64,000 bases of DNA from Escherichia coli (GTDB taxonomy: Bacteria > Pseudomonadota > Gammaproteobacteria > Enterobacterales > Enterobacteriaceae). Made by a program: the position numbers and the translations under genes. The notes under the pieces were generated by a model. It was given only the letters and a program-made list of their open reading frames with translations, searched no databases and was not told the origin of the DNA. Of the stretch, positions 1-28,380 are shown piece after piece; position 1 is the stretch's first letter, and every line of letters begins with the position of its first letter. The stretch lies in the NCBI RefSeq assembly GCF_036507355.1, contig NZ_AP027877.1. One strand, written 5' to 3'.

Positions 1-279
1 AACCGGTTGGCCATTGGCATCTGTTTGATACGTTACCAGACGCTTGCCCAGCCAGTTTTCTGCAAAAGCACGGATGTCTTCTTTACTGTTTACAACTTTC
101 ACACCGCCCGCTTTACCGCGGCCACCAGCGTGAACCTGACATTTCACTACCCACGGACCGGCACCGATTTTTGAAGCGGCTTCTTCTGCTTCGCGCGGAG
201 TAGTACAGGCATAACCCACCGGTGCTGGTAAGCCATAGCGGGCAAAAAGTTGTTTTGCCTGATATTCATGTAAGTTCAT
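1..279 (-). CDS. sucC: Succinyl-CoA synthetase beta subunit, 5' part only (gene continues beyond window start)
   Basis: Reverse complement of 241-279 reads ATGAACTTACATGAATATCAGGCAAAACAACTTTTTGCC = [13 protein letters not shown], the SucC N-terminus; no stop inside the window; follows sucB on the same strand. Confidence 0.85.
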
Positions 280-22184: not shown

Positions 22185-23603
22185 TTATTTCCCCTTCCGC
22201 GCCGCCTCATACGCTGCCAACGTTTGTACTCTCGCCTCTTTGTGATCGACTATCGGTTGCGGATAATCCAGCGTCACACCTGCTTTCTGCGCCCACTTCC
22301 ACGGCTCATGCACCGCTTTCCCCGGTACATTGCGCAGTTCCGGTAGCCACTGGCGGATAAACTCGCCTTCGCGGTCAAATTTCTCGCCCTGGGTTGTCGG
22401 GTTGAAAATACGAAAATACGGCGCTGCATCAGTACCCGTAGAAGCCGCCCACTGCCAGCCACCGTTATTGGCTGCCAAATCACCATCAATCAGCTGCGAC
22501 ATGAAATATCGCTCGCCTTCGCGCCAGTCGATCAACAAATCTTTCACCAGAAAACTGGCTGTAATCATCCGTAGCCTGTTATGCATCCAGCCAGTGCTAT
22601 TAAGCTGACGCATGGCAGCATCGACAATCGGGTATCCCGTTATGCCTTCCTGCCAGGCCTTTAAATGGGCGGGATTGCTTTGCCACTGTACACGATCCGT
22701 CCAGGCAATAAACGGACAATGTTTACACAACGAGGGGTAATATGTCATCAGATGACGGTAAAACTCGCGCCAGATCAGCTCATTAAGCCAGACACTACCG
22801 GCCCCACCGTCCAGCGCCTGCGGCTGTTCCGCCAACAGGCGATGCAAACACTGGCGAGGTGATAACCCGCCCGTTGCCAGGCTGGCGGACAAACGACTGG
22901 TGCCTTCCACTGCCGGAAAATCTCGTTGTTGCTCATATTCTCCGGCACCGTTCTGGCAAAACTGGCGTAATTGCGCAATCGCCGCTTTTTCTTCCACCGG
23001 GAAATGCGCAGTATCGAAAGACTGACGAGGATAATTCAGCGTAATGGATGGCGCGGGCTTTATCGATCCGCTACTACGAACTTTTGGTGCAGCGACGCAC
23101 TCCGGCATCCCTTCCCGCAGCCGTTTCAGCCAGGCATTCTTAAAAGGCGTAAAGACTTTGTACATCTCATGATTGCCGGTCATCACCGCGCCAGGCGGCA
23201 GGATCACGCTGTCATCAAATCCTTCACACACCACGTTACGCAGCGTTCTCTCAACCTGCACATCCCGCGCCCGCTCATTCACCTCATACTGATAGTTATA
23301 AAAAAGATGAGTAACGCTGTTTTCCGCGCACACCTGTTTAACTATTTCGACGCTGGCGGCAAAGTCATCCACTTCACGGAACAATAAAGGAATGCCTTTT
23401 TCCGCCAGCGCGATTTGTAGCCCGTTCAGTTGAGCATTGATAAGTTCAGCCTGACGCGGCGACATATTATGCGCCGCCCACTGGCGTGGTGTAGCGATAT
23501 ACAACGCCAGCACGCGTGCAGACGAATTGCGGCAGGCGGCAGCCAGCGCGAGATTATCGTGCAGACGTAAATCCTGGCGAAACCAGACCAGATGAGTAGT
23601 CAT
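22185..23603 (-). CDS. phr: Deoxyribodipyrimidine photolyase
   Basis: 472-aa ORF MTTHLVWFRQDLRLHDNLALAAACRNSSARVLALYIATPRQW...; full length. Confidence 0.96.
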   Translation of the reverse strand: MTTHLVWFRQDLRLHDNLALAAACRNSSARVLALYIATPRQWAAHNMSPRQAELINAQLNGLQIALAEKGIPLLFREVDDFAASVEIVKQVCAENSVTHLFYNYQYEVNERARDVQVERTLRNVVCEGFDDSVILPPGAVMTGNHEMYKVFTPFKNAWLKRLREGMPECVAAPKVRSSGSIKPAPSITLNYPRQSFDTAHFPVEEKAAIAQLRQFCQNGAGEYEQQRDFPAVEGTSRLSASLATGGLSPRQCLHRLLAEQPQALDGGAGSVWLNELIWREFYRHLMTYYPSLCKHCPFIAWTDRVQWQSNPAHLKAWQEGITGYPIVDAAMRQLNSTGWMHNRLRMITASFLVKDLLIDWREGERYFMSQLIDGDLAANNGGWQWAASTGTDAAPYFRIFNPTTQGEKFDREGEFIRQWLPELRNVPGKAVHEPWKWAQKAGVTLDYPQPIVDHKEARVQTLAAYEAARKGK

Positions 23604-24109
23604 AAAACTCCTGAATGGCGCAAGTTAATCACACGCGGCCAAAGTTCGAAATAACGCTGCCCTGAAAGCCAGGCGTCAGGATAAAGCGCCATATAGTGTT
23701 TGATACGCATCAGCGGCGCAAGAAGTGGTTGCTCGCCACGGCGATAACTGTCGATAAGCGCAGCCAGCTGCTGGCGTTCTGTGGAATCAATATGCGGGCG
23801 AAAATAACCCTGAACGTGCATCAAAACGTTGGTGTGATCGCGCGGGTTGGCGGGATGAGAAAGCAAAACAATTACGCGTTGGCGGTACTGGCTGTAAAAA
23901 TCATCCAGATTTTGCCACTGATGAATATCAGCCACAAACGGGCCAAGTTTGCGGTATTCCGGCTGAGAATGAGCCAGAAAGACGAGTTTATAGCGGCTGT
24001 GATAATCGAGAAGCGCCCCGCGCGTTAAGCCATGTTCTTTCAGTCGATGTAACTCATGAAGGGCGAAGATACGGATTAGGGTGCTGTCATCAAATCGTTG
24101 CTGATTCAT
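23600..24109 (-). CDS. ybgA: DUF1722-family protein, co-transcribed with phr
   Basis: 169-aa ORF MNQQRFDDSTLIRIFALHELHRLKEHGLTRGALLDYHSRYKLVFLAHSQPEYRKLG...; stop overlaps the phr start (ATGA). Confidence 0.9.
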   Translation of the reverse strand: MNQQRFDDSTLIRIFALHELHRLKEHGLTRGALLDYHSRYKLVFLAHSQPEYRKLGPFVADIHQWQNLDDFYSQYRQRVIVLLSHPANPRDHTNVLMHVQGYFRPHIDSTERQQLAALIDSYRRGEQPLLAPLMRIKHYMALYPDAWLSGQRYFELWPRVINLRHSGVL

Positions 24110-24339
24110 TACTGCTCCTGAGATATTAACAGGAGTAAGTGTAGACGTTGGGAAATGATTTTTGTGAAGTTAATCCGCTAGCAGGGCAAGATTACGAAAG
24201 CGCGCTCCCCGCAAGCAACTCATCAAGGTAGTTAATCATGGCTTAACACGATATTACGCCAGAAGTCACCATTTCCAAAACACAGCGCCGCTATAAAGTC
24301 GGCTATGTCAGAGCCCGCCACATAAACAGCAAAACCTAC

Positions 24340-24567
24340 ATGACCACGTACTACTCACGACACCCCTGCCTGAACCTTAAGGGCGACTGGCTGAAAGAGG
24401 CCGGATTTGATACCGGGCGGGGTGTCACGGTGAAGATTTCGGAGGGGTGCCTGACCATTATCGCTGACAGTGACGAGGTGCAGGAGCTGCGGGAGGAACT
24501 TTATCAGGTTAAACAGGTGGTTAAGGGGATACGGAGCGGGATGTTTAGTGTGCTGGACGAGAGTTAA
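24340..24567 (+). CDS. SymE-like small protein (SymE/AbrB-fold type I toxin family); possibly N-terminally truncated
   Basis: 75-aa ORF MTTYYSRHPCLNLKGDWLKEAGFDTGRGVTVKISEGCLTIIADSDEVQELREELYQ... resembles the SymE core (..[33 protein letters not shown]..). The in-frame upstream sequence still looks SymE-like but has no start codon before the stop at 24244. Confidence 0.6.
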   Translation: MTTYYSRHPCLNLKGDWLKEAGFDTGRGVTVKISEGCLTIIADSDEVQELREELYQVKQVVKGIRSGMFSVLDES

Positions 24568-24572
24568 ATAAT

Positions 24573-24612
24573 AAAAAAGCCGGGAAGATGTTATTTTCTT
24601 CCCGGCTTTTTT
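24573..24612. terminator. Bidirectional rho-independent terminator shared by the SymE-like gene (+) and the Rhs immunity gene (-)
   Basis: gccgggaag-(10 nt loop)-cttcccggc stem flanked by an A run on one side and a T run on the other. Confidence 0.75.
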
Positions 24613-24904
24613 AAAGTTTATTTATAGCTTGGTTAATTTCAAATAATAATGAGACAATATCTTTCGCAGAACCATTATAAATGGGGGTATCCCAATCAAA
24701 GTCCTTTATTAAACAAATATAAAAATTCCCATTTAAATTAAAAGATGGTCGCCACCCAACATCCAAAAGATACCCACCAGGATATTCAACTTGGAGCATA
24801 TCTTCCTTAAGTTCATCTCGCTGTTCATTAAGAGGGATGCTTTGTTTCAGGGAGAAGTCATTAAAAATTACATTCCCTTTTTTTCCTAAGAAATCAATGT
24901 TCAT
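24611..24904 (-). CDS. Putative Rhs immunity protein (cognate to the toxin tip immediately upstream)
   Basis: 97-aa AT-rich ORF MNIDFLGKKGNVIFNDFSLKQSIPLNEQRDELKEDMLQVEYPGGYLLDVGW...; its ATG overlaps the toxin stop (ATGA at 24901-24904). Position and composition are typical of rhsI genes; no family assignment was possible. Confidence 0.6.
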   Translation of the reverse strand: MNIDFLGKKGNVIFNDFSLKQSIPLNEQRDELKEDMLQVEYPGGYLLDVGWRPSFNLNGNFYICLIKDFDWDTPIYNGSAKDIVSLLFEINQAINKL

Positions 24905-26151
24905 GGTGTTGTTAGCCTTCGGAATTCATCAAGTGATATGGGATGTCCATGTATTGTCCCACCGCTAAGTTCAACTCGAACCCATTGAGATTCTTTACCC
25001 TCACTGGCCCCAATAACTTTCCCCATATCTTTTACTTTCCATGGTTTACCGTTGGTAACAGGTGTGCCTGTATTAAAAACATCGTATTCCAGCGTTTTAA
25101 TATCAATATCGGGAGAATATTTTGCCGGGCCTGATTTTGTTGATTTAATTATATCCTTCCATGATTTGTTTTTTGGAGGAAAATGTTTGTATCCATGATT
25201 TGTCCATTCAGGTTGCCCACACTTTAAACCTAACGGGTCGATCCACCCCAACGGATTCGGCGCGTATTGGTATAAATTTAATCCACCAAGCAGCCCTATC
25301 GGATCCGTTACCATGAACCGCCCGACATCCGGATCATAGTACCTGTGCAGATTGTAGTGCAGCCCCGTTTCCCTGTCGAGGTACTGTCCCTGGTAGCGCA
25401 GGTTCTGCTCCACCCTGCCGTGGTCCTTCTCCTGTATCGTGTTACCCCAGACCTGATACCCCGTCTCCCACACGATTCTCCCGTCGCTGTCCGTCATCTC
25501 TTCCGGCGCACCGTTCACATCCGTGTGAAAATACAGTATCCGGTTCGGGCCCTCTTTGCCTGCCTTATCCACCCGCGCCAGCGGTTCATAACTCCCCGGG
25601 TCCCTGTAGATGTACAGGCTGCCTGTTCCCTCCGGCCTGCTCTCCTGCGCCAGCCGCATTCCGTCCCATAAAAATTTTGTCCGGTTGTACGGTTTACCGT
25701 CAGGGCTGATGTGCTGTTTTTCCGTCCGCCTCCCCAGTGCATCGTACACATACCGGTATGCCCCCCGCGCTGTCGTCACTTCCACCATCCGGTGTTCCGC
25801 ATCATAACGGTAACTCTGCGTTCCGCTCCGGCCCTCCTTTTCCACCGCACGGCCAAATTCGTCATAACGGTAGTGCACACCACGGTAAGACATCAGCCGG
25901 TTGAACGGCACCACGCTGTTTTCTGCCGTGGCCCTTTCCCCCGCGCGCCTCCCCAGCAGGTTTCCCGCCGCGTCGTACTGCCAGCTCGCCAGATACCCCT
26001 CATCCTCCGAACGGCACGCCGTGATGCGCCCCGTGGGGTCGTAGAAGTAATCCGTTTCCCCCCGCCGGCTGTGCCGCGTCTTCAGCAGTTCATCCTCGCC
26101 ACTGTAGCTGTACTGCCGGTCCGTGAACGTCTCCGGTACCACCCCGCGCAT
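24901..26151 (-). CDS. Rhs protein, C-terminal part: end of YD-repeat core, PxxxxDPxGL motif and a 107-aa toxin tip. Same frame as the upstream fragment, separated from it by an in-frame TAG
   Basis: ORF contains YD repeats (YRYDEFGR, YRYDAEHR, YVYDALGRR) and the hallmark YYDPDVGRFMVTDPIGLLGGLNLYQYAPNPLGWIDPLGL, followed by a low-GC tip KCGQPEWTNHGYKHF...TIHGHPISLDEFRRLTTP. Frame arithmetic: the TAG at 26221-26223 is in frame with this ORF. Confidence 0.85.
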   Translation of the reverse strand: MRGVVPETFTDRQYSYSGEDELLKTRHSRRGETDYFYDPTGRITACRSEDEGYLASWQYDAAGNLLGRRAGERATAENSVVPFNRLMSYRGVHYRYDEFGRAVEKEGRSGTQSYRYDAEHRMVEVTTARGAYRYVYDALGRRTEKQHISPDGKPYNRTKFLWDGMRLAQESRPEGTGSLYIYRDPGSYEPLARVDKAGKEGPNRILYFHTDVNGAPEEMTDSDGRIVWETGYQVWGNTIQEKDHGRVEQNLRYQGQYLDRETGLHYNLHRYYDPDVGRFMVTDPIGLLGGLNLYQYAPNPLGWIDPLGLKCGQPEWTNHGYKHFPPKNKSWKDIIKSTKSGPAKYSPDIDIKTLEYDVFNTGTPVTNGKPWKVKDMGKVIGASEGKESQWVRVELSGGTIHGHPISLDEFRRLTTP

Positions 26152-26220
26152 CCCGCTGTATGTCTCCCTGCGCTTCAGCCGCCCGCCGGGGTCGTAAAGC
26201 TGCCGCGTGCTCAGTCGCCC

Positions 26221-28380
26221 CTAGCTTCTGAGCACCTCACGGTGCAGGTGGTCGCGCGTGAACTCGCTGATGACCTCCCGGTCCAGATTTATCTGCTGGA
26301 GATGGCCGCTGCCGTAGTACAGATGGCGCTGCGTTCTGCCGTCCGGAAAGGTGGTGGCAGTCCGGTTGCCCAGTTCATCGTACTGGTGGGTCAGGATGCC
26401 CTGCGCCGTCTCCTCGCTCAGCATCCGCCCCAGTCTGTCGTAGCTGAAGCAGATAACTTCCGGCGCGTCAGTTTCGTGCCGCTGGCGGCGGATTTCACCG
26501 CCCCGGTCCCCGGTGAACACCACTTCCGTGACCGCGTTCAGCGCGTTGTAGCGGTACGACTGGCGGCAGCCGTCCGGATTTATCTGCTCCGCCAGACGGT
26601 CCAGCACGTCATGGCGGAACCGGTAGCGTTCTCCGTTCTCGTTCGTGAGCGTGACCAGACGCCCGTAAGCGTCGTACCCGAACGCCGTCCTGCGCCCCAT
26701 CGCGTCCGTCCGGCTGCGCACCCGGCCCTGCCCGTCCCGCTGCCAGCGCGTTATCCTCCCCATCGGGCTGGTGTACTTCACCAGACTGCCCGCCGCGTCT
26801 GACTGGTAATTCACCGTGCGGCCGTCCGCCAGTATCACCTCCGTCAGATGACCGCTGTCGTCATACCCGTAGCGCGTGCTGTGGCTCTCCGCATCCGTCA
26901 TTCTGATAAGCCGCGTGCGTTCGTCGTAGAACCACGCCGTCTGCGAGCCGGAGCAGTCCGTGTGCCGCATGAGCTGCCCGTCTTCATTCCACTGGAGGTG
27001 TTTATTCCCCCCGCGCGCATCCGTTATCTGCACCACCTGGCCGTGGTGGTCATACTGATACCGGGTGTTCTGCTGCAGCGGGTCGGTCACGGCAAGAAGG
27101 TTGCCGCGTTCATCGTACACACAGCGCCAGGTGTTTCCCGCCGCGTCCACCTCCGTTTCCGGCTGGTGCCACACCGGGTGCCACTGTGTCTGCGCCACCC
27201 GCCCCAGCGGGTCGTGCGTCTCCGTGATATGCCCCTGCCGGTCATACACATAGCGCCATTTGCCGCCCTGAGGGTCGGTCATCCCCAGCAACAGTCGTTC
27301 TTCGTCGCTCCAGCGGAATGTCGTCACCTGTCCGGCTTCGTCCTGGTACGCCGTCACCTGATTCTGCGCATCCCACTGGTGATAACGTGTGCGCCCCAGT
27401 CCGTCCGTCACGCACAGCCTGCGCTGCGCCAGGTCCCACGCCAGCCGGTACTGTTCACCGCTGTCCGTGTGGTGCCCCGTCACCCGCCATGCCGCGTCAT
27501 CCGGACCGTCATACCAGCCCCACTGGTAATAATACCCTTCGCCGCCCGGCTGGCGGTGCAGCGTCATGCAGTGGTTTTCGTCGTAAGCAAACTCACGCAG
27601 CAGGTGCCCCGTGCTGTCGTACACGCCGTTCAGGTGGCCGGCCTCGTCATAGCTGTAACGACGCAGCAGTAAAGGTGCAGTCTCAGGGAAATGCTGATAA
27701 ATCTGTGTCACCCGCCGGGGATGCGCCGCCAGTTCGTAATACAGACGGATGCACGGACGCTGCTGTTCGCCGCTGATTTCCACAATGCGGCCCCGGTCGT
27801 CGTAGTACAGATTCAGACAGTTGCTGTTACGGTCGCCCAGCATTTTCAGCCGCTGGCGCTGCGGGTGGTGCGGGTCGCCTTCAAACAACCAGTGGATACC
27901 ATCATCGCTGCTGATAAGCCAGTGCCCCTGCTCACCACGCCTTACCGCCAGCCCTTCACCGGGGCTGTAAAACCCGCCCCCCGGCAGTACGGCTTCCATA
28001 TCCAGGCGTCGCCCCATACCCGACACAAAGGTCATGCAGTTTTCGTCTGCGCCACCCGGCAATACAAATGCCACCTGACACTGGTACACCTGCTCGTTAT
28101 CACGGAGAAACTGGCTCTGTATTTCCAGCCCTTGTTCACCGTCATTAATCCCTACCCGTGTTACCTGAACTGGCGTGTAGTGAAGATCCTTTACCTGTTT
28201 CTCCAGTTTTTTCATTTGCTGTTCAATCTGGGAGGCTAATTCGTCTCCTTCCTGCATCTGGCCCCGACTGATAATGAGTGCAGCGTCGGGATCGCTGAGG
28301 CGCAGCATATTAATAGTGCTGTCCTGAATAATATTCCCGGGAAAAGTTACAACAGTTTCATTGAGATAATACTCCGTCAT
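26221..28380 (-). CDS. Rhs protein, N-terminal part: DUF1795-like N-terminal domain plus YD-repeat core, ended by an in-frame amber codon (probable pseudogene or disrupted gene)
   Basis: 719-aa ORF. Core shows classic Rhs repeats (YQYDHHGQVV, YGYDDSGHLTEV, FGYDAYGRLV) and ends ...FTRDHLHREVLRS*, where intact Rhs proteins continue ...TRDRLHRETLRSFG.... Confidence 0.85.
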   Translation of the reverse strand: MTEYYLNETVVTFPGNIIQDSTINMLRLSDPDAALIISRGQMQEGDELASQIEQQMKKLEKQVKDLHYTPVQVTRVGINDGEQGLEIQSQFLRDNEQVYQCQVAFVLPGGADENCMTFVSGMGRRLDMEAVLPGGGFYSPGEGLAVRRGEQGHWLISSDDGIHWLFEGDPHHPQRQRLKMLGDRNSNCLNLYYDDRGRIVEISGEQQRPCIRLYYELAAHPRRVTQIYQHFPETAPLLLRRYSYDEAGHLNGVYDSTGHLLREFAYDENHCMTLHRQPGGEGYYYQWGWYDGPDDAAWRVTGHHTDSGEQYRLAWDLAQRRLCVTDGLGRTRYHQWDAQNQVTAYQDEAGQVTTFRWSDEERLLLGMTDPQGGKWRYVYDRQGHITETHDPLGRVAQTQWHPVWHQPETEVDAAGNTWRCVYDERGNLLAVTDPLQQNTRYQYDHHGQVVQITDARGGNKHLQWNEDGQLMRHTDCSGSQTAWFYDERTRLIRMTDAESHSTRYGYDDSGHLTEVILADGRTVNYQSDAAGSLVKYTSPMGRITRWQRDGQGRVRSRTDAMGRRTAFGYDAYGRLVTLTNENGERYRFRHDVLDRLAEQINPDGCRQSYRYNALNAVTEVVFTGDRGGEIRRQRHETDAPEVICFSYDRLGRMLSEETAQGILTHQYDELGNRTATTFPDGRTQRHLYYGSGHLQQINLDREVISEFTRDHLHREVLRS

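What the first reader, a model, noticed from the sequence alone, without database searches (positions are those of the whole stretch)
24244..24567. SymE-like toxin-family gene next to the Rhs immunity gene, possibly a truncated relic
The 75-aa ORF has the SymE core (LKGDWLKEAGFDTGRGVTVKISEGCLTIIAD versus SymE [33 protein letters not shown]). SymE-like sequence continues in frame upstream of the ATG (..RYKVGYVRARHINSKTY..) back to a stop at 24244 without an alternative start codon, suggesting loss of the original N-terminus. It converges on the Rhs immunity gene and shares its terminator. I found no canonical LexA box (CTG-N10-CAG) upstream, unlike K-12 symE. Whether it is part of the polymorphic-toxin island or an independent SOS-type toxin relic is unclear; an antisense RNA analogous to SymR is conceivable but not shown.
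Basis: partly seen in the sequence, partly recalled or inferred. Interest (0 to 1): 0.5.

Follow-up and report, generated by a model that had tools for sequence, protein, structure and literature searches.

The report
Inactivated SymE-family toxin gene capping Rhs cassette
This is a real but recently killed copy (stop codon at position 3) of a SymE-type toxin gene that regularly sits at the outer end of Rhs toxin/immunity cassettes in enterobacteria; it is an ordinary, already-annotated kind of gene, though its conserved 5' end may serve as a recombination handle for swapping Rhs toxin tips.

Summary
Window 24238-24567 (+) encodes a SymE-family protein (Pfam PF08845, E 2e-19; 42% identical to K-12 SymE). 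It runs tail-to-tail with the 97-aa ORF after the Rhs toxin tip and shares a bidirectional terminator with it. No LexA box is present.

The "lost N-terminus" reading is wrong. The original ATG (24238) and Shine-Dalgarno are intact, and codon 3 is GAA→TAA (24244). Strain CUWW06 has the same gene with GAA (109 aa) next to an intact Rhs. The TAA allele occurs in 4 of 5,426 complete E. coli genomes.

The gene belongs to the Rhs island. In 26 of 30 loci from other enterobacterial genera, and in most independently found metagenome loci, a SymE-like gene converges on an Rhs core-end/toxin/immunity cassette. Copies are often truncated and interleaved with orphan Rhs tips.

An antisense promoter lies exactly where K-12's symR promoter lies. 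HTH-linked paralogues keep a covarying SymR-like RNA that Rfam's SymR model detects at E about 1e-6. The window's copy has lost the 3' hairpin, with an ISAs1-type end in its place. The antisense strand also matches Rfam isrA (113 bits).

Verdict: a decaying type I toxin-antitoxin module at the edge of a decaying Rhs cassette. Known kind, modest interest.

The parts
24238..24567 (+). SymE-family toxin gene, 109 codons, pseudogene by nonsense at codon 3 (ATG 24238-24240; stop 24565-24567)
   Evidence: Pfam PF08845 E 2e-19. Alignment with the intact alleles of SCU-113 and CUWW06. RefSeq names the homologues 'SymE family type I addiction module toxin'.
24244..24246 (+). Premature stop TAA (GAA in intact alleles); it also lies at position -1 of the predicted antisense transcription start
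   Evidence: The exact 60-mer carrying TAA occurs in 4 of 5,426 E. coli genomes, and 114 others differ.
24225..24231 (+). Shine-Dalgarno AAGGTAG of the original start codon
   Evidence: Read from the sequence; conserved in homologues.
24340..24567 (+). Residual 75-aa ATG ORF. It lacks the first beta-strand region (YKVGYV) of the SymE domain. PGAP instead calls an ATT-initiated 104-aa ORF from 24253 in strain XJ34.
24193..24299 (.). Conserved 5' block (about -45 to +62 relative to the ATG). It is the best conserved DNA of the gene across genera, and recombination breakpoints fall at its right edge (about +53).
   Evidence: Sliding identity is 0.80-0.88 here against 0.44-0.54 at +70 to +120.
24251..24278 (-). 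Antisense promoter-like element: -35 TTGGAA (complement of 24273-24278), 16-nt spacer, -10 TAATAT (complement of 24251-24256, which is CDS nt 14-19). The predicted start is 24243.
   Evidence: The position equals that of the K-12 symR -10 (complement of symE nt 14-19; SymR starts at nt 6). The -10 stays TAnnAT (TAATAT, TAGAAT, TACAAT) in 20 distinct 5' ends although the codons differ.
24173..24243 (-). Degenerate SymR-like antisense RNA region. Hairpin 1 keeps 10 of 13 pairs and hairpin 2 keeps 3 of 14.
   Evidence: No Rfam SymR hit here at E<=10, whereas paralogues score 47-50 bits.
24180..24215 (.). 36-nt copy of the 3' terminal sequence of ISAs1-family / H-repeat elements, lying where SymR hairpin 2 would be
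   Evidence: The same sequence occurs at the end of ISEc1 (L040:12785-12818) and after ybfL and ybfD in K-12. Window homology to K-12 upstream of ybgA ends at 24215.
24309..24437 (-). Match to Rfam isrA (RF01385), antisense to the SymE-like coding sequence
   Evidence: 112.9 bits against a gathering score of 51, E 3e-26. The model's structure shows no covariation on 21 homologues, so the match shows homology of the locus and not a conserved RNA fold.
24291..24375 (+). Mosaic, hypervariable patch of the coding sequence (aa 19-46)
24572..24613 (.). Bidirectional intrinsic terminator shared with the convergent 97-aa ORF
   Evidence: conserved across cassettes.
24611..24904 (-). 97-aa ORF overlapping the Rhs stop by 4 nt. 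It is a presumed immunity gene on position alone; no family match.
   Evidence: It travels with the same Rhs tip in CUWW06 and in L041.
24901..28380 (-). Decayed Rhs gene in two ORFs (24901-26151 and 26221-28380). It has a 112-bp internal deletion and a 1.5-kb 5' deletion relative to CUWW06.

Best explanation
The feature is a recently inactivated allele of an Rhs-cassette-linked SymE-family type I toxin gene.

The intact form is 109 aa, with a disordered N-terminal tail, an AbrB/MazE-like core and a C-terminal helix. By analogy with K-12 SymE it would be a DNA-binding protein that is toxic when over-made. Its synthesis would be held down by a short cis-antisense RNA (SymR-like). That RNA is made from a promoter buried in codons 5-14 and starts at CDS nucleotide 6, so it covers the start codon and the Shine-Dalgarno sequence.

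In this subfamily the gene, with its terminator, forms the distal cap of each Rhs tip cassette: Rhs core end, C-terminal toxin, immunity gene, terminator, then the convergent SymE gene.

In this window the module is dead on both sides. The toxin ORF stops at codon 3 (GAA>TAA). The antisense RNA gene keeps its promoter and pairing region but has lost its 3' stem-loop, with an ISAs1-type end in its place. The adjacent Rhs gene is itself broken.

Shown: family membership, the nonsense lesion, Rhs linkage, conservation of the antisense promoter position, the covarying SymR-like structure in paralogues, and its absence here. Inferred: toxicity, DNA binding, antisense repression, and lack of expression in this strain.
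For: Family: Pfam E 2e-19 and 42% identity to K-12 SymE.

Lesion: alignment with SCU-113 and CUWW06 shows ATG GCT GAA > ATG GCT TAA. CUWW06 has an intact 109-aa gene next to an intact 1,544-aa Rhs. TAA is present in 4 of 5,426 genomes.

Rhs linkage: 26 of 30 loci found by protein homology in Citrobacter, Yersinia, Kosakonia, Enterobacter, Erwinia, Rahnella and others have an Rhs core end on the opposite strand 0.4-1.5 kb downstream. SymE fragments are interleaved with orphan tips. The same holds in Salmonella and in most metagenome loci selected only by a 5'-UTR motif.

Antisense RNA: the -10 lies at the complement of CDS nt 14-19, as in K-12 symE/symR. HTH-linked paralogues fold into the SymR two-hairpin shape with z from -4 to -7. 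On 11 sequences 96.6% of cells pair, 12 pairs carry compensatory changes and 0 of 500 shuffles reach this. The fold fits the antisense strand better than the sense strand (96.6% against 79%). Rfam SymR hits paralogues at E 3e-7 to 1.5e-6 and starts at CDS nt 6.

Decay here: hairpin 2 keeps 3 of 14 pairs, the fold z-score is +1.1, and there is no SymR hit. An IS end occupies 24180-24215.

Homologous loci give detectable antisense transcripts: IsrA in Salmonella, with expression inverse to STM0294.1n (PMC2330248), and Ssr1 next to an Rhs gene in Shigella (PMC4782007). SymE function is taken from Thompson 2022 as summarised in PMC11894785.
Against: There are no expression data for this strain. 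Weak re-initiation after the two-codon mini-ORF, for example at ATT 24253 as PGAP models it, cannot be excluded.

The antisense promoter matches only 8 of 12 consensus positions and fell below the threshold of the generic scan.

The strong conservation of the 5' block could reflect recombination rather than RNA regulation.

Toxicity has been shown only for K-12 SymE. This protein scores 50.7 bits against a cut-off of 132 for the SymE equivalog.

The AlphaFold model was poor (pLDDT 57), so the fold was not confirmed.
Confidence: 0.75

Rival explanations
1. The main selected function of this sequence is at the DNA level. The conserved 5' block (about -45 to +53) would be a recombination handle or attachment site. 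Together with the 71-77-nt Rhs core end, it would bracket exchangeable toxin/immunity cassettes. XerC-type recombinase/primase/HTH elements would use it to deliver new Rhs tips. The SymE protein would then be dispensable. This is not exclusive of the best explanation.
For: SCU-113 carries two tandem units, each made of Rhs tail, hypC, xerC, primase, HTH and the 5' block, with different cargo (SymE body, immunity, toxin). GPEC709 equals SCU-113 with everything between two 71-nt Rhs-tail repeats removed. GF3-3 is 100% identical to the window up to CDS +53, including the TAA, and then switches to another SymE body and another toxin cassette. The same backbone recurs in Citrobacter and in metagenome contigs. 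The block is the most conserved part of the gene although it encodes a tail that is disordered in SymE. A dead toxin ORF survived at least one cassette swap.
Against: No circular intermediate, core site or empty/occupied pair at a single site was demonstrated. The breakpoints at the block edge are equally expected from ordinary homologous recombination. The conservation is also explained by the embedded antisense promoter, start codon and SD. The window itself contains no recombinase.
Confidence: 0.35
2. The gene is still functional: a 104-aa protein from ATT 24253 (as PGAP annotates in XJ34), or the 75-aa ATG product, is made and acts as a toxin or DNA-binding protein.
For: PGAP calls a 104-aa CDS with a non-canonical start. 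The frame is open from 24247 to 24567. The stop lies only 7 nt before the ATT, so termination-reinitiation is conceivable. The N-terminal tail is variable or shortened in some annotated homologues.
Against: ATT is a very poor initiator, and the SD lies 22 nt upstream of it. The 75-aa product lacks the conserved KVGYV strand region of the domain. TB06052 adds a frameshift to the same allele, which is a sign of relaxed selection. The neighbouring Rhs gene is also decaying.
Confidence: 0.1
3. The functional product is the antisense transcript itself: an IsrA/Ssr1-like sRNA acting in trans, or a leader/promoter feeding ybgA-phrB. The SymE reading frame would be incidental.
For: There is an Rfam isrA hit above the gathering score and a partial Ssr1 hit on the minus strand. 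Phenotypes have been reported for the Ssr1 deletion in Shigella (PMC4782007). No terminator lies on the minus strand between 24243 and the ybgA start at 24109.
Against: The isrA model structure shows no covariation (observed values equal the shuffled ones). The matched stretch is simply the complement of the best conserved protein-coding core. K-12 keeps the ybgA-proximal 105 nt without any SymE-like gene, so ybgA does not need it.
Confidence: 0.12
4. It is an independent SOS-induced SymE orthologue relic, unrelated to the Rhs island.
For: It belongs to the same protein family as K-12 SymE.
Against: There is no LexA box. The score is below the SymE equivalog cut-off. The true symE lies in the hsd-mcr region of K-12. 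Linkage to Rhs tips is systematic across genera.
Confidence: 0.03

Closest known systems
E. coli K-12 SymE/SymR type I toxin-antitoxin system (Kawano, Aravind & Storz 2007, PMC1891008; Thompson et al. 2022)
   Same: It shares the Pfam family and 42% identity over the core. The antisense promoter lies at the same codons, and the antisense start is predicted at CDS nt 6. Paralogues of this subfamily have a two-hairpin RNA that Rfam's SymR model recognises and that shares the 3' tail ACCGCG(C/U)UAAAUA.
   Different: There is no LexA box. The genomic context differs (Rhs tip rather than the hsd/mcr island). The N- and C-terminal tails differ. The score is below the SymE equivalog cut-off. In this window the ORF has a stop at codon 3 and the SymR-like 3' hairpin is missing.
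Salmonella STM0294.1n / IsrA sense-antisense pair in SPI-6 (Padalon-Brauch et al. 2008, PMC2330248; Rfam RF01385)
   Same: The window's minus strand matches isrA at 113 bits. The complement of the isrA consensus translates to a SymE-like core (my translation of the consensus shown). Salmonella homologues also converge on an Rhs gene plus a small ORF.
   Different: IsrA was mapped as a 423-nt RNA whose ends I could not place on this locus. The Rfam structure is not supported by covariation. The paper describes STM0294.1n as having no clear functional annotation and does not mention SymE.
Shigella flexneri Ssr1 sRNA (Wang et al. 2016, PMC4782007; Rfam RF02627)
   Same: It is a partial match on the same strand, covering the terminator and the antisense of the SymE-like CDS. 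Ssr1 lies between an Rhs-family gene and a hypothetical gene. S. flexneri has a 105-aa SymE-family protein that is 85-86% identical.
   Different: The score is only 91 bits against a gathering score of 820. The upstream half of the model, which covers another immunity region, does not match.
Rhs C-terminal-tip displacement / orphan toxin-immunity arrays
   Same: The gene sits at the distal end of the tip cassette. In arrays, SymE-like fragments alternate with Rhs core-end orphans.
   Different: Descriptions of Rhs orphan arrays that I know of (from memory) do not treat the SymE-like gene as a cassette boundary. Kawano 2007 only lists RHS and haemagglutinin genes among SymE neighbourhoods.

Membership tests
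SymE toxin family (Pfam PF08845) | Significant match to the SymE_toxin domain model | tested here: met
   E 2e-19, 69.9 bits, residues 16-75 of the restored protein against model positions 1-53 of 54. All 120 listed homologues carry PF08845.
SymE toxin family (Pfam PF08845) | AbrB/MazE-like swapped-hairpin fold | tested here: inconclusive
   The AlphaFold2 monomer has pLDDT 57. The order of its elements (beta, beta, alpha, beta, beta, then a C-terminal helix) is compatible with the fold. Foldseek against the PDB gave no match with E<=0.001, and a profile search of PDB sequences gave none.
SymE orthologue (NCBIfam NF010128 equivalog, endoribonuclease SymE) | Score at or above the curated cut-off of 132 bits | tested here: not met
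   50.7 bits.
SymE/SymR type I toxin-antitoxin system | Intact toxin reading frame | tested here: not met
   TAA at codon 3.
SymE/SymR type I toxin-antitoxin system | Antisense promoter inside the first codons, so that the RNA covers the start codon and SD | tested here: met
   By sequence only. The -10 TAATAT is the complement of CDS nt 14-19, as for K-12 symR. It is conserved as TAnnAT in 20 distinct 5' ends. No transcript data.
SymE/SymR type I toxin-antitoxin system | SymR RNA homologue (Rfam RF01809) with two hairpins | tested here: not met
   Window: no hit at E<=10, hairpin 2 keeps 3 of 14 pairs, z +1.1. K-12 control: 95.3 bits. Paralogues L041, L051 and L047: 47-50 bits, E 3e-7 to 1.5e-6, below the gathering score of 61. 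Covariation in paralogues is strong.
SymE/SymR type I toxin-antitoxin system | LexA (SOS) control of the toxin promoter | tested here: not met
   No CTG-N10-CAG in 23900-24400. The best 20-mer has 9 mismatches to the consensus.
SymE/SymR type I toxin-antitoxin system | Toxicity on over-expression, DNA binding / nucleoid condensation, Lon sensitivity | not testable with these tools
   Known only for K-12 SymE (PMC1891008; Thompson 2022 as summarised in PMC11894785).
Rfam isrA (RF01385) | Score above the gathering threshold | tested here: met
   112.9 bits against 51, full length 1-129, minus strand 24437-24309.
Rfam isrA (RF01385) | Conserved secondary structure supported by covariation | tested here: not met
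   73.3% of cells paired against 72.7% in shuffles. The covariation score equals the shuffled mean, reached by 234 of 500 shuffles.
Rhs polymorphic-toxin cassette (as an accessory component) | Consistent physical linkage to an Rhs core end + C-terminal toxin + small ORF | tested here: met
   Window. Other genera: 26 of 30 loci. Salmonella. Most metagenome loci.

The most novel reading that the evidence does not exclude
The SymE-like gene is the outer recombination handle of Rhs tip cassettes. An integrative element (XerC-subfamily tyrosine recombinase, DnaG-type primase, RstR-like HTH repressor) would carry a cassette bounded by about 75 nt of Rhs core end and by the SymE 5' block. It would integrate at the resident SymE 5' block and then be resolved by recombination across the Rhs core end. 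The result is a new toxin/immunity tip on the chromosomal Rhs gene and a single HTH-less SymE copy, such as the one in this window. IsrA and Ssr1, described as island sRNAs, would then be antisense transcripts of this SymE cap.
Probability: 0.35. Interest if true: 0.6.

Novelty: new member of a known kind. Interest (0 to 1): 0.33.

Why it matters
The feature itself is ordinary. RefSeq already names it a SymE-family toxin, and SymE-RHS neighbourhoods were listed in 2007.

Three by-products are worth noting.

First, the Rhs-linked SymE subfamily retains true SymR homologues. This extends the SymE/SymR type I system beyond the LexA-controlled K-12 locus.

Second, two published "island sRNAs", Salmonella IsrA and Shigella Ssr1, map to the antisense strand of SymE-like genes beside Rhs genes. 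This suggests reading their phenotypes as effects on a toxin-antitoxin/Rhs cassette.

Third, the conserved SymE 5' block and the Rhs core end bracket exchangeable toxin/immunity cassettes, and these cassettes also ride on XerC-primase elements. That points to a testable route by which Rhs toxin tips are acquired and displaced.

Tried and rejected
- AlphaFold2 on a 21-sequence alignment gave a low-confidence monomer (pLDDT 57). Foldseek against the PDB and a profile search of PDB sequences found nothing useful, so the fold test is inconclusive.
- The Rfam isrA structure was tested on 21 homologues and shows no covariation. I therefore use the hit only as evidence of locus homology.
- I tried to place the mapped IsrA ends (LT2 339338-339760) on the gene. 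The Salmonella contig I retrieved (L036) has a SymE copy that is 5'-truncated at a junction with an Rhs fragment and has no minus-strand terminator nearby. The mapping failed, and the LT2 record was not available.
- A viral-contig scan for the 5'-UTR motif found nothing.
- The generic sigma-70 scan found no sense promoter upstream of the gene. It also missed the antisense promoter, which matches 8 of 12 positions.
- The first literature search (IsrA + SymE, word-start matching) returned only irrelevant papers. Whole-word searches found no paper linking IsrA to SymE, and none describing tyrosine-recombinase elements carrying Rhs tips in enterobacteria.
- A -10-like GATAAT on the minus strand at 24457-24462 was considered as an IsrA promoter. 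I rejected it because the spacing to Rfam model position 1 is wrong and it is not conserved in other alleles.
- The N9 'CTGAGATATTAACAG' at 24118 was considered as a LexA site. I rejected it because the spacing is wrong and it is a hairpin over the ybgA ribosome-binding site.

Full report
**What is in the sequence.** The window is E. coli chromosome at the rhsC locus (ybgA-phrB on one side, ybfA-kdp on the other). ybgA occupies 23600-24109 (-). An in-frame stretch on the + strand runs from the TAA at 24244-24246 to the stop at 24565-24567. Its first ATG is at 24340, giving 75 aa. Two codons upstream of that TAA there is an ATG (24238-24240) preceded by AAGGTAG (24225-24231).

Aligning the region with near-identical E. 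coli strains shows that the ancestral gene begins ATG GCT GAA CAC GAT (MAEHDITPEV...). The window has a single G>T change that turns codon 3 into TAA. Strain CUWW06 has the same gene with GAA (109 aa, WP_032280516.1) and otherwise two amino-acid differences. PGAP annotates the TAA allele in XJ34 from an ATT at the equivalent of 24253 (104 aa), and in TB06052 as a frameshifted pseudogene. The exact 60-mer with TAA occurs in 4 of 5,426 complete E. coli genomes (GF3-3, XJ34, XJ6-3, TB06052), and 114 other genomes carry the region with a difference.

**Family.** The restored protein hits Pfam SymE_toxin (PF08845) at E 2e-19. It aligns with K-12 SymE at 42% identity over 72 residues (E 1e-16). It reaches only 50.7 bits on NCBIfam's SymE equivalog model, whose cut-off is 132. 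It is thus a family member and not the symE orthologue, which lies in the hsd-mcr region of K-12. A database search returns 369 relatives, all with PF08845 and mostly named "SymE family type I addiction module toxin", in Escherichia, Shigella, Salmonella, Citrobacter, Erwinia, Kosakonia and others. AlphaFold2 gave a poor monomer model (pLDDT 57), with a beta-beta-alpha-beta-beta-helix order compatible with an AbrB/MazE-like fold, and fold searches were uninformative. K-12 SymE is now regarded as a DNA-binding, nucleoid-condensing protein rather than an RNase (Thompson 2022, as summarised in PMC11894785).

**Surroundings.** The gene converges on a 97-aa ORF (24611-24904, -) that overlaps by 4 nt the end of an Rhs C-terminal fragment (24901-26151). 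The Rhs fragment contains RHS repeats and the RHS core end, followed by about 100 residues with no family match. The 97-aa ORF has no family match either, so "immunity gene" rests on position alone. A 17-bp-stem bidirectional terminator (24572-24613) separates the two genes. Relative to CUWW06 the window's Rhs has a 112-bp internal deletion. It also has a 1.5-kb deletion that removes its N-terminus and the DcrB-related gene. The whole module is therefore decaying. No CTG-N10-CAG occurs in 23900-24400.

**Island component or independent relic?** A protein-based scan of one genome per species returned 30 loci in Citrobacter, Yersinia, Kosakonia, Enterobacter, Superficieibacter, Erwinia, Atlantibacter, Rahnella, Budvicia and others. 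In 26 of them an Rhs core end lies on the opposite strand 0.4-1.5 kb downstream of the SymE-like gene. In orphan arrays (L005, L008, L019, L021/L033, L027), SymE-like fragments alternate with Rhs core-end orphans. Only 5 of 47 copies keep both the canonical N-terminus and an open frame. Many are 5'-truncated exactly where the next Rhs fragment begins. Salmonella contigs show the same arrangement. So do most of the relevant metagenome contigs retrieved with a 5'-UTR motif alone. The gene is thus a regular distal cap of Rhs tip cassettes. Kawano et al. 2007 already listed RHS and haemagglutinin genes, cHTH regulators and primase-helicases among SymE neighbourhoods. Anecdotal reports exist for Erwinia and Pantoea.

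**Antisense RNA.**

*Rfam matches.* The minus strand 24437-24309 matches isrA (RF01385) at 112.9 bits against a gathering score of 51. The stretch 24800-24268 partly matches Shigella Ssr1, and SymR does not match.

*What the literature says.* IsrA is a 423-nt Salmonella RNA, cis-antisense to STM0294.1n, with an expression pattern inverse to it (PMC2330248). Ssr1 lies between an Rhs-family gene and a hypothetical gene (PMC4782007). Homologous loci therefore do give antisense transcripts. However, the isrA consensus structure has no covariation support on 21 homologues. That hit therefore shows homology of the locus and nothing more.

*A SymR-type promoter.* The 5' end is more informative. The DNA from about -45 to +62 is the most conserved part of the gene across genera (0.80-0.88 pairwise identity, against 0.44-0.54 further in). 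On the minus strand it carries TTGGAA, a 16-nt spacer and TAATAT. The -10 is the complement of CDS nt 14-19, which is exactly the position of the symR -10 (TAGAAT) in K-12, where SymR starts at symE nt 6. In 20 distinct 5' ends the hexamer stays TAATAT, TAGAAT or TACAAT although the encoded residues change.

*The RNA in paralogues and in the window.* In paralogues preceded by an HTH gene, the predicted antisense RNA folds into two hairpins like SymR, with the anti-SD in loop 1 and z-scores from -4 to -7. On 11 sequences including SymR:
- 96.6% of cells pair;
- 12 of 27 pairs show compensatory changes;
- none of 500 shuffles reaches this;
- the fold fits the antisense strand better than the sense strand, 96.6% against 79%.

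Rfam's SymR model finds these paralogues at 47-50 bits (E 3e-7 to 1.5e-6), starting at CDS nt 6, with the K-12 control at 95 bits. The window's copy keeps the promoter and 10 of 13 pairs of hairpin 1, but only 3 of 14 pairs of hairpin 2, and it folds no better than shuffles. In place of hairpin 2 lies a 36-nt copy of the terminal sequence of ISAs1/H-repeat elements (24180-24215). K-12 retains the ybgA-proximal part up to that point, but there the SymE-like gene is replaced by the ybfD H-repeat. The nonsense mutation sits at -1 of the predicted antisense start.

**Cassette exchange (beyond the finding).** In strain SCU-113 the ybgA-rhsC interval holds two tandem units. Each unit is made of an Rhs core tail, a 160-aa ORF, a XerC-subfamily recombinase, a 910-aa DnaG-type primase, an RstR-like HTH gene and the SymE 5' block, and each carries different cargo (SymE body, small ORFs, toxin tip). 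GPEC709 equals SCU-113 with everything between two 71-nt Rhs-tail repeats removed, so the same cassette sits directly on the main Rhs gene there. GF3-3 is identical to the window from ybgA to CDS +53, TAA included, and then switches to another SymE body and an HNH/EndoVII-type cassette. Metagenome contig L041 carries the window's own tip, 97-aa ORF and SymE 3' part (96-98% identical). It differs in having GAA, an upstream HTH gene and a SymR hit, and its segment +54 to +135 is a diverged mosaic patch. These facts fit a model in which the SymE 5' block and the Rhs core end are the two handles for cassette exchange, possibly used by XerC-primase elements. They do not distinguish site-specific from homologous recombination.

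**Verdict.** The best explanation is a recently inactivated SymE/SymR-type module that caps an Rhs tip cassette. In this strain both the toxin frame and the antitoxin RNA's 3' structure are lost, next to a broken Rhs gene. It is a known kind of gene that is already annotated in RefSeq, so the interest is modest. The cassette-handle idea and the identification of IsrA and Ssr1 as antisense transcripts of SymE-like genes are the parts worth following up.

Noticed in passing
window 24901-28380 (junctions near 26475 and 28055): The Rhs gene is broken. Relative to strain CUWW06 it lacks 112 bp internally. It also lacks about 1.5 kb that removes the Rhs N-terminus and the DcrB-related upstream gene.
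   Followed up: partly
window 24180-24215: This is a 36-nt copy of the 3' terminal sequence of ISAs1-family / H-repeat elements. The same sequence lies at the end of ISEc1 in SCU-113 and after ybfL and ybfD in K-12. Here it sits between ybgA and the SymE-like gene, where SymR hairpin 2 lies in paralogues.
   Followed up: partly
L002:9129-18499 and L040:1-12654 (E. coli SCU-113); also L006, L043, L048, L059, L023: Tandem integrative units (XerC-subfamily recombinase, 910-aa DnaG-type primase, RstR-like HTH) each carry an Rhs core tail, a toxin tip, small ORFs and a SymE body. GPEC709 looks like the resolved state after recombination across a 71-nt Rhs-tail repeat.
   Followed up: partly
L062:5897-6400 (E. 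coli GF3-3) versus window 24110-24620: GF3-3 is identical to the window up to CDS +53, including the TAA. It then switches abruptly to a different SymE allele and an HNH/EndoVII-type cassette. The dead 5' end has therefore survived a cassette swap.
   Followed up: yes
window 24291-24375: This is a hypervariable, mosaic patch inside the SymE-like coding sequence (aa 19-46). It differs by about 30% between alleles whose flanks are nearly identical (SCU-113, L041).
   Followed up: partly
window 24116-24136: An inverted repeat CTCCTG-N9-CAGGAG overlaps the ybgA ribosome-binding site. It contains a CTG-N9-CAG that resembles a LexA box but has the wrong spacing.
   Followed up: partly
L036:4500-5060 (Salmonella enterica contig): The annotated 118-aa 'SymE family' protein P0069 is a fusion. 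Its first ~17 codons read through the complement of an Rhs fragment that has replaced the SymE 5' block, including the antisense -10.
   Followed up: partly
window 24253 / L001:9144: RefSeq (PGAP) rescues the nonsense allele by calling an ATT start codon (104 aa, WP_225388860.1). The same allele in TB06052 is flagged as a frameshifted pseudogene.
   Followed up: yes
L021 / L033 (Enterobacteriaceae MAG UBA5654): There are at least six SymE-like fragments within about 7.5 kb. Each is paired with an Rhs core-end orphan, and most carry stops or 5' truncations. This is an unusually long array of displaced cassettes.
   Followed up: no
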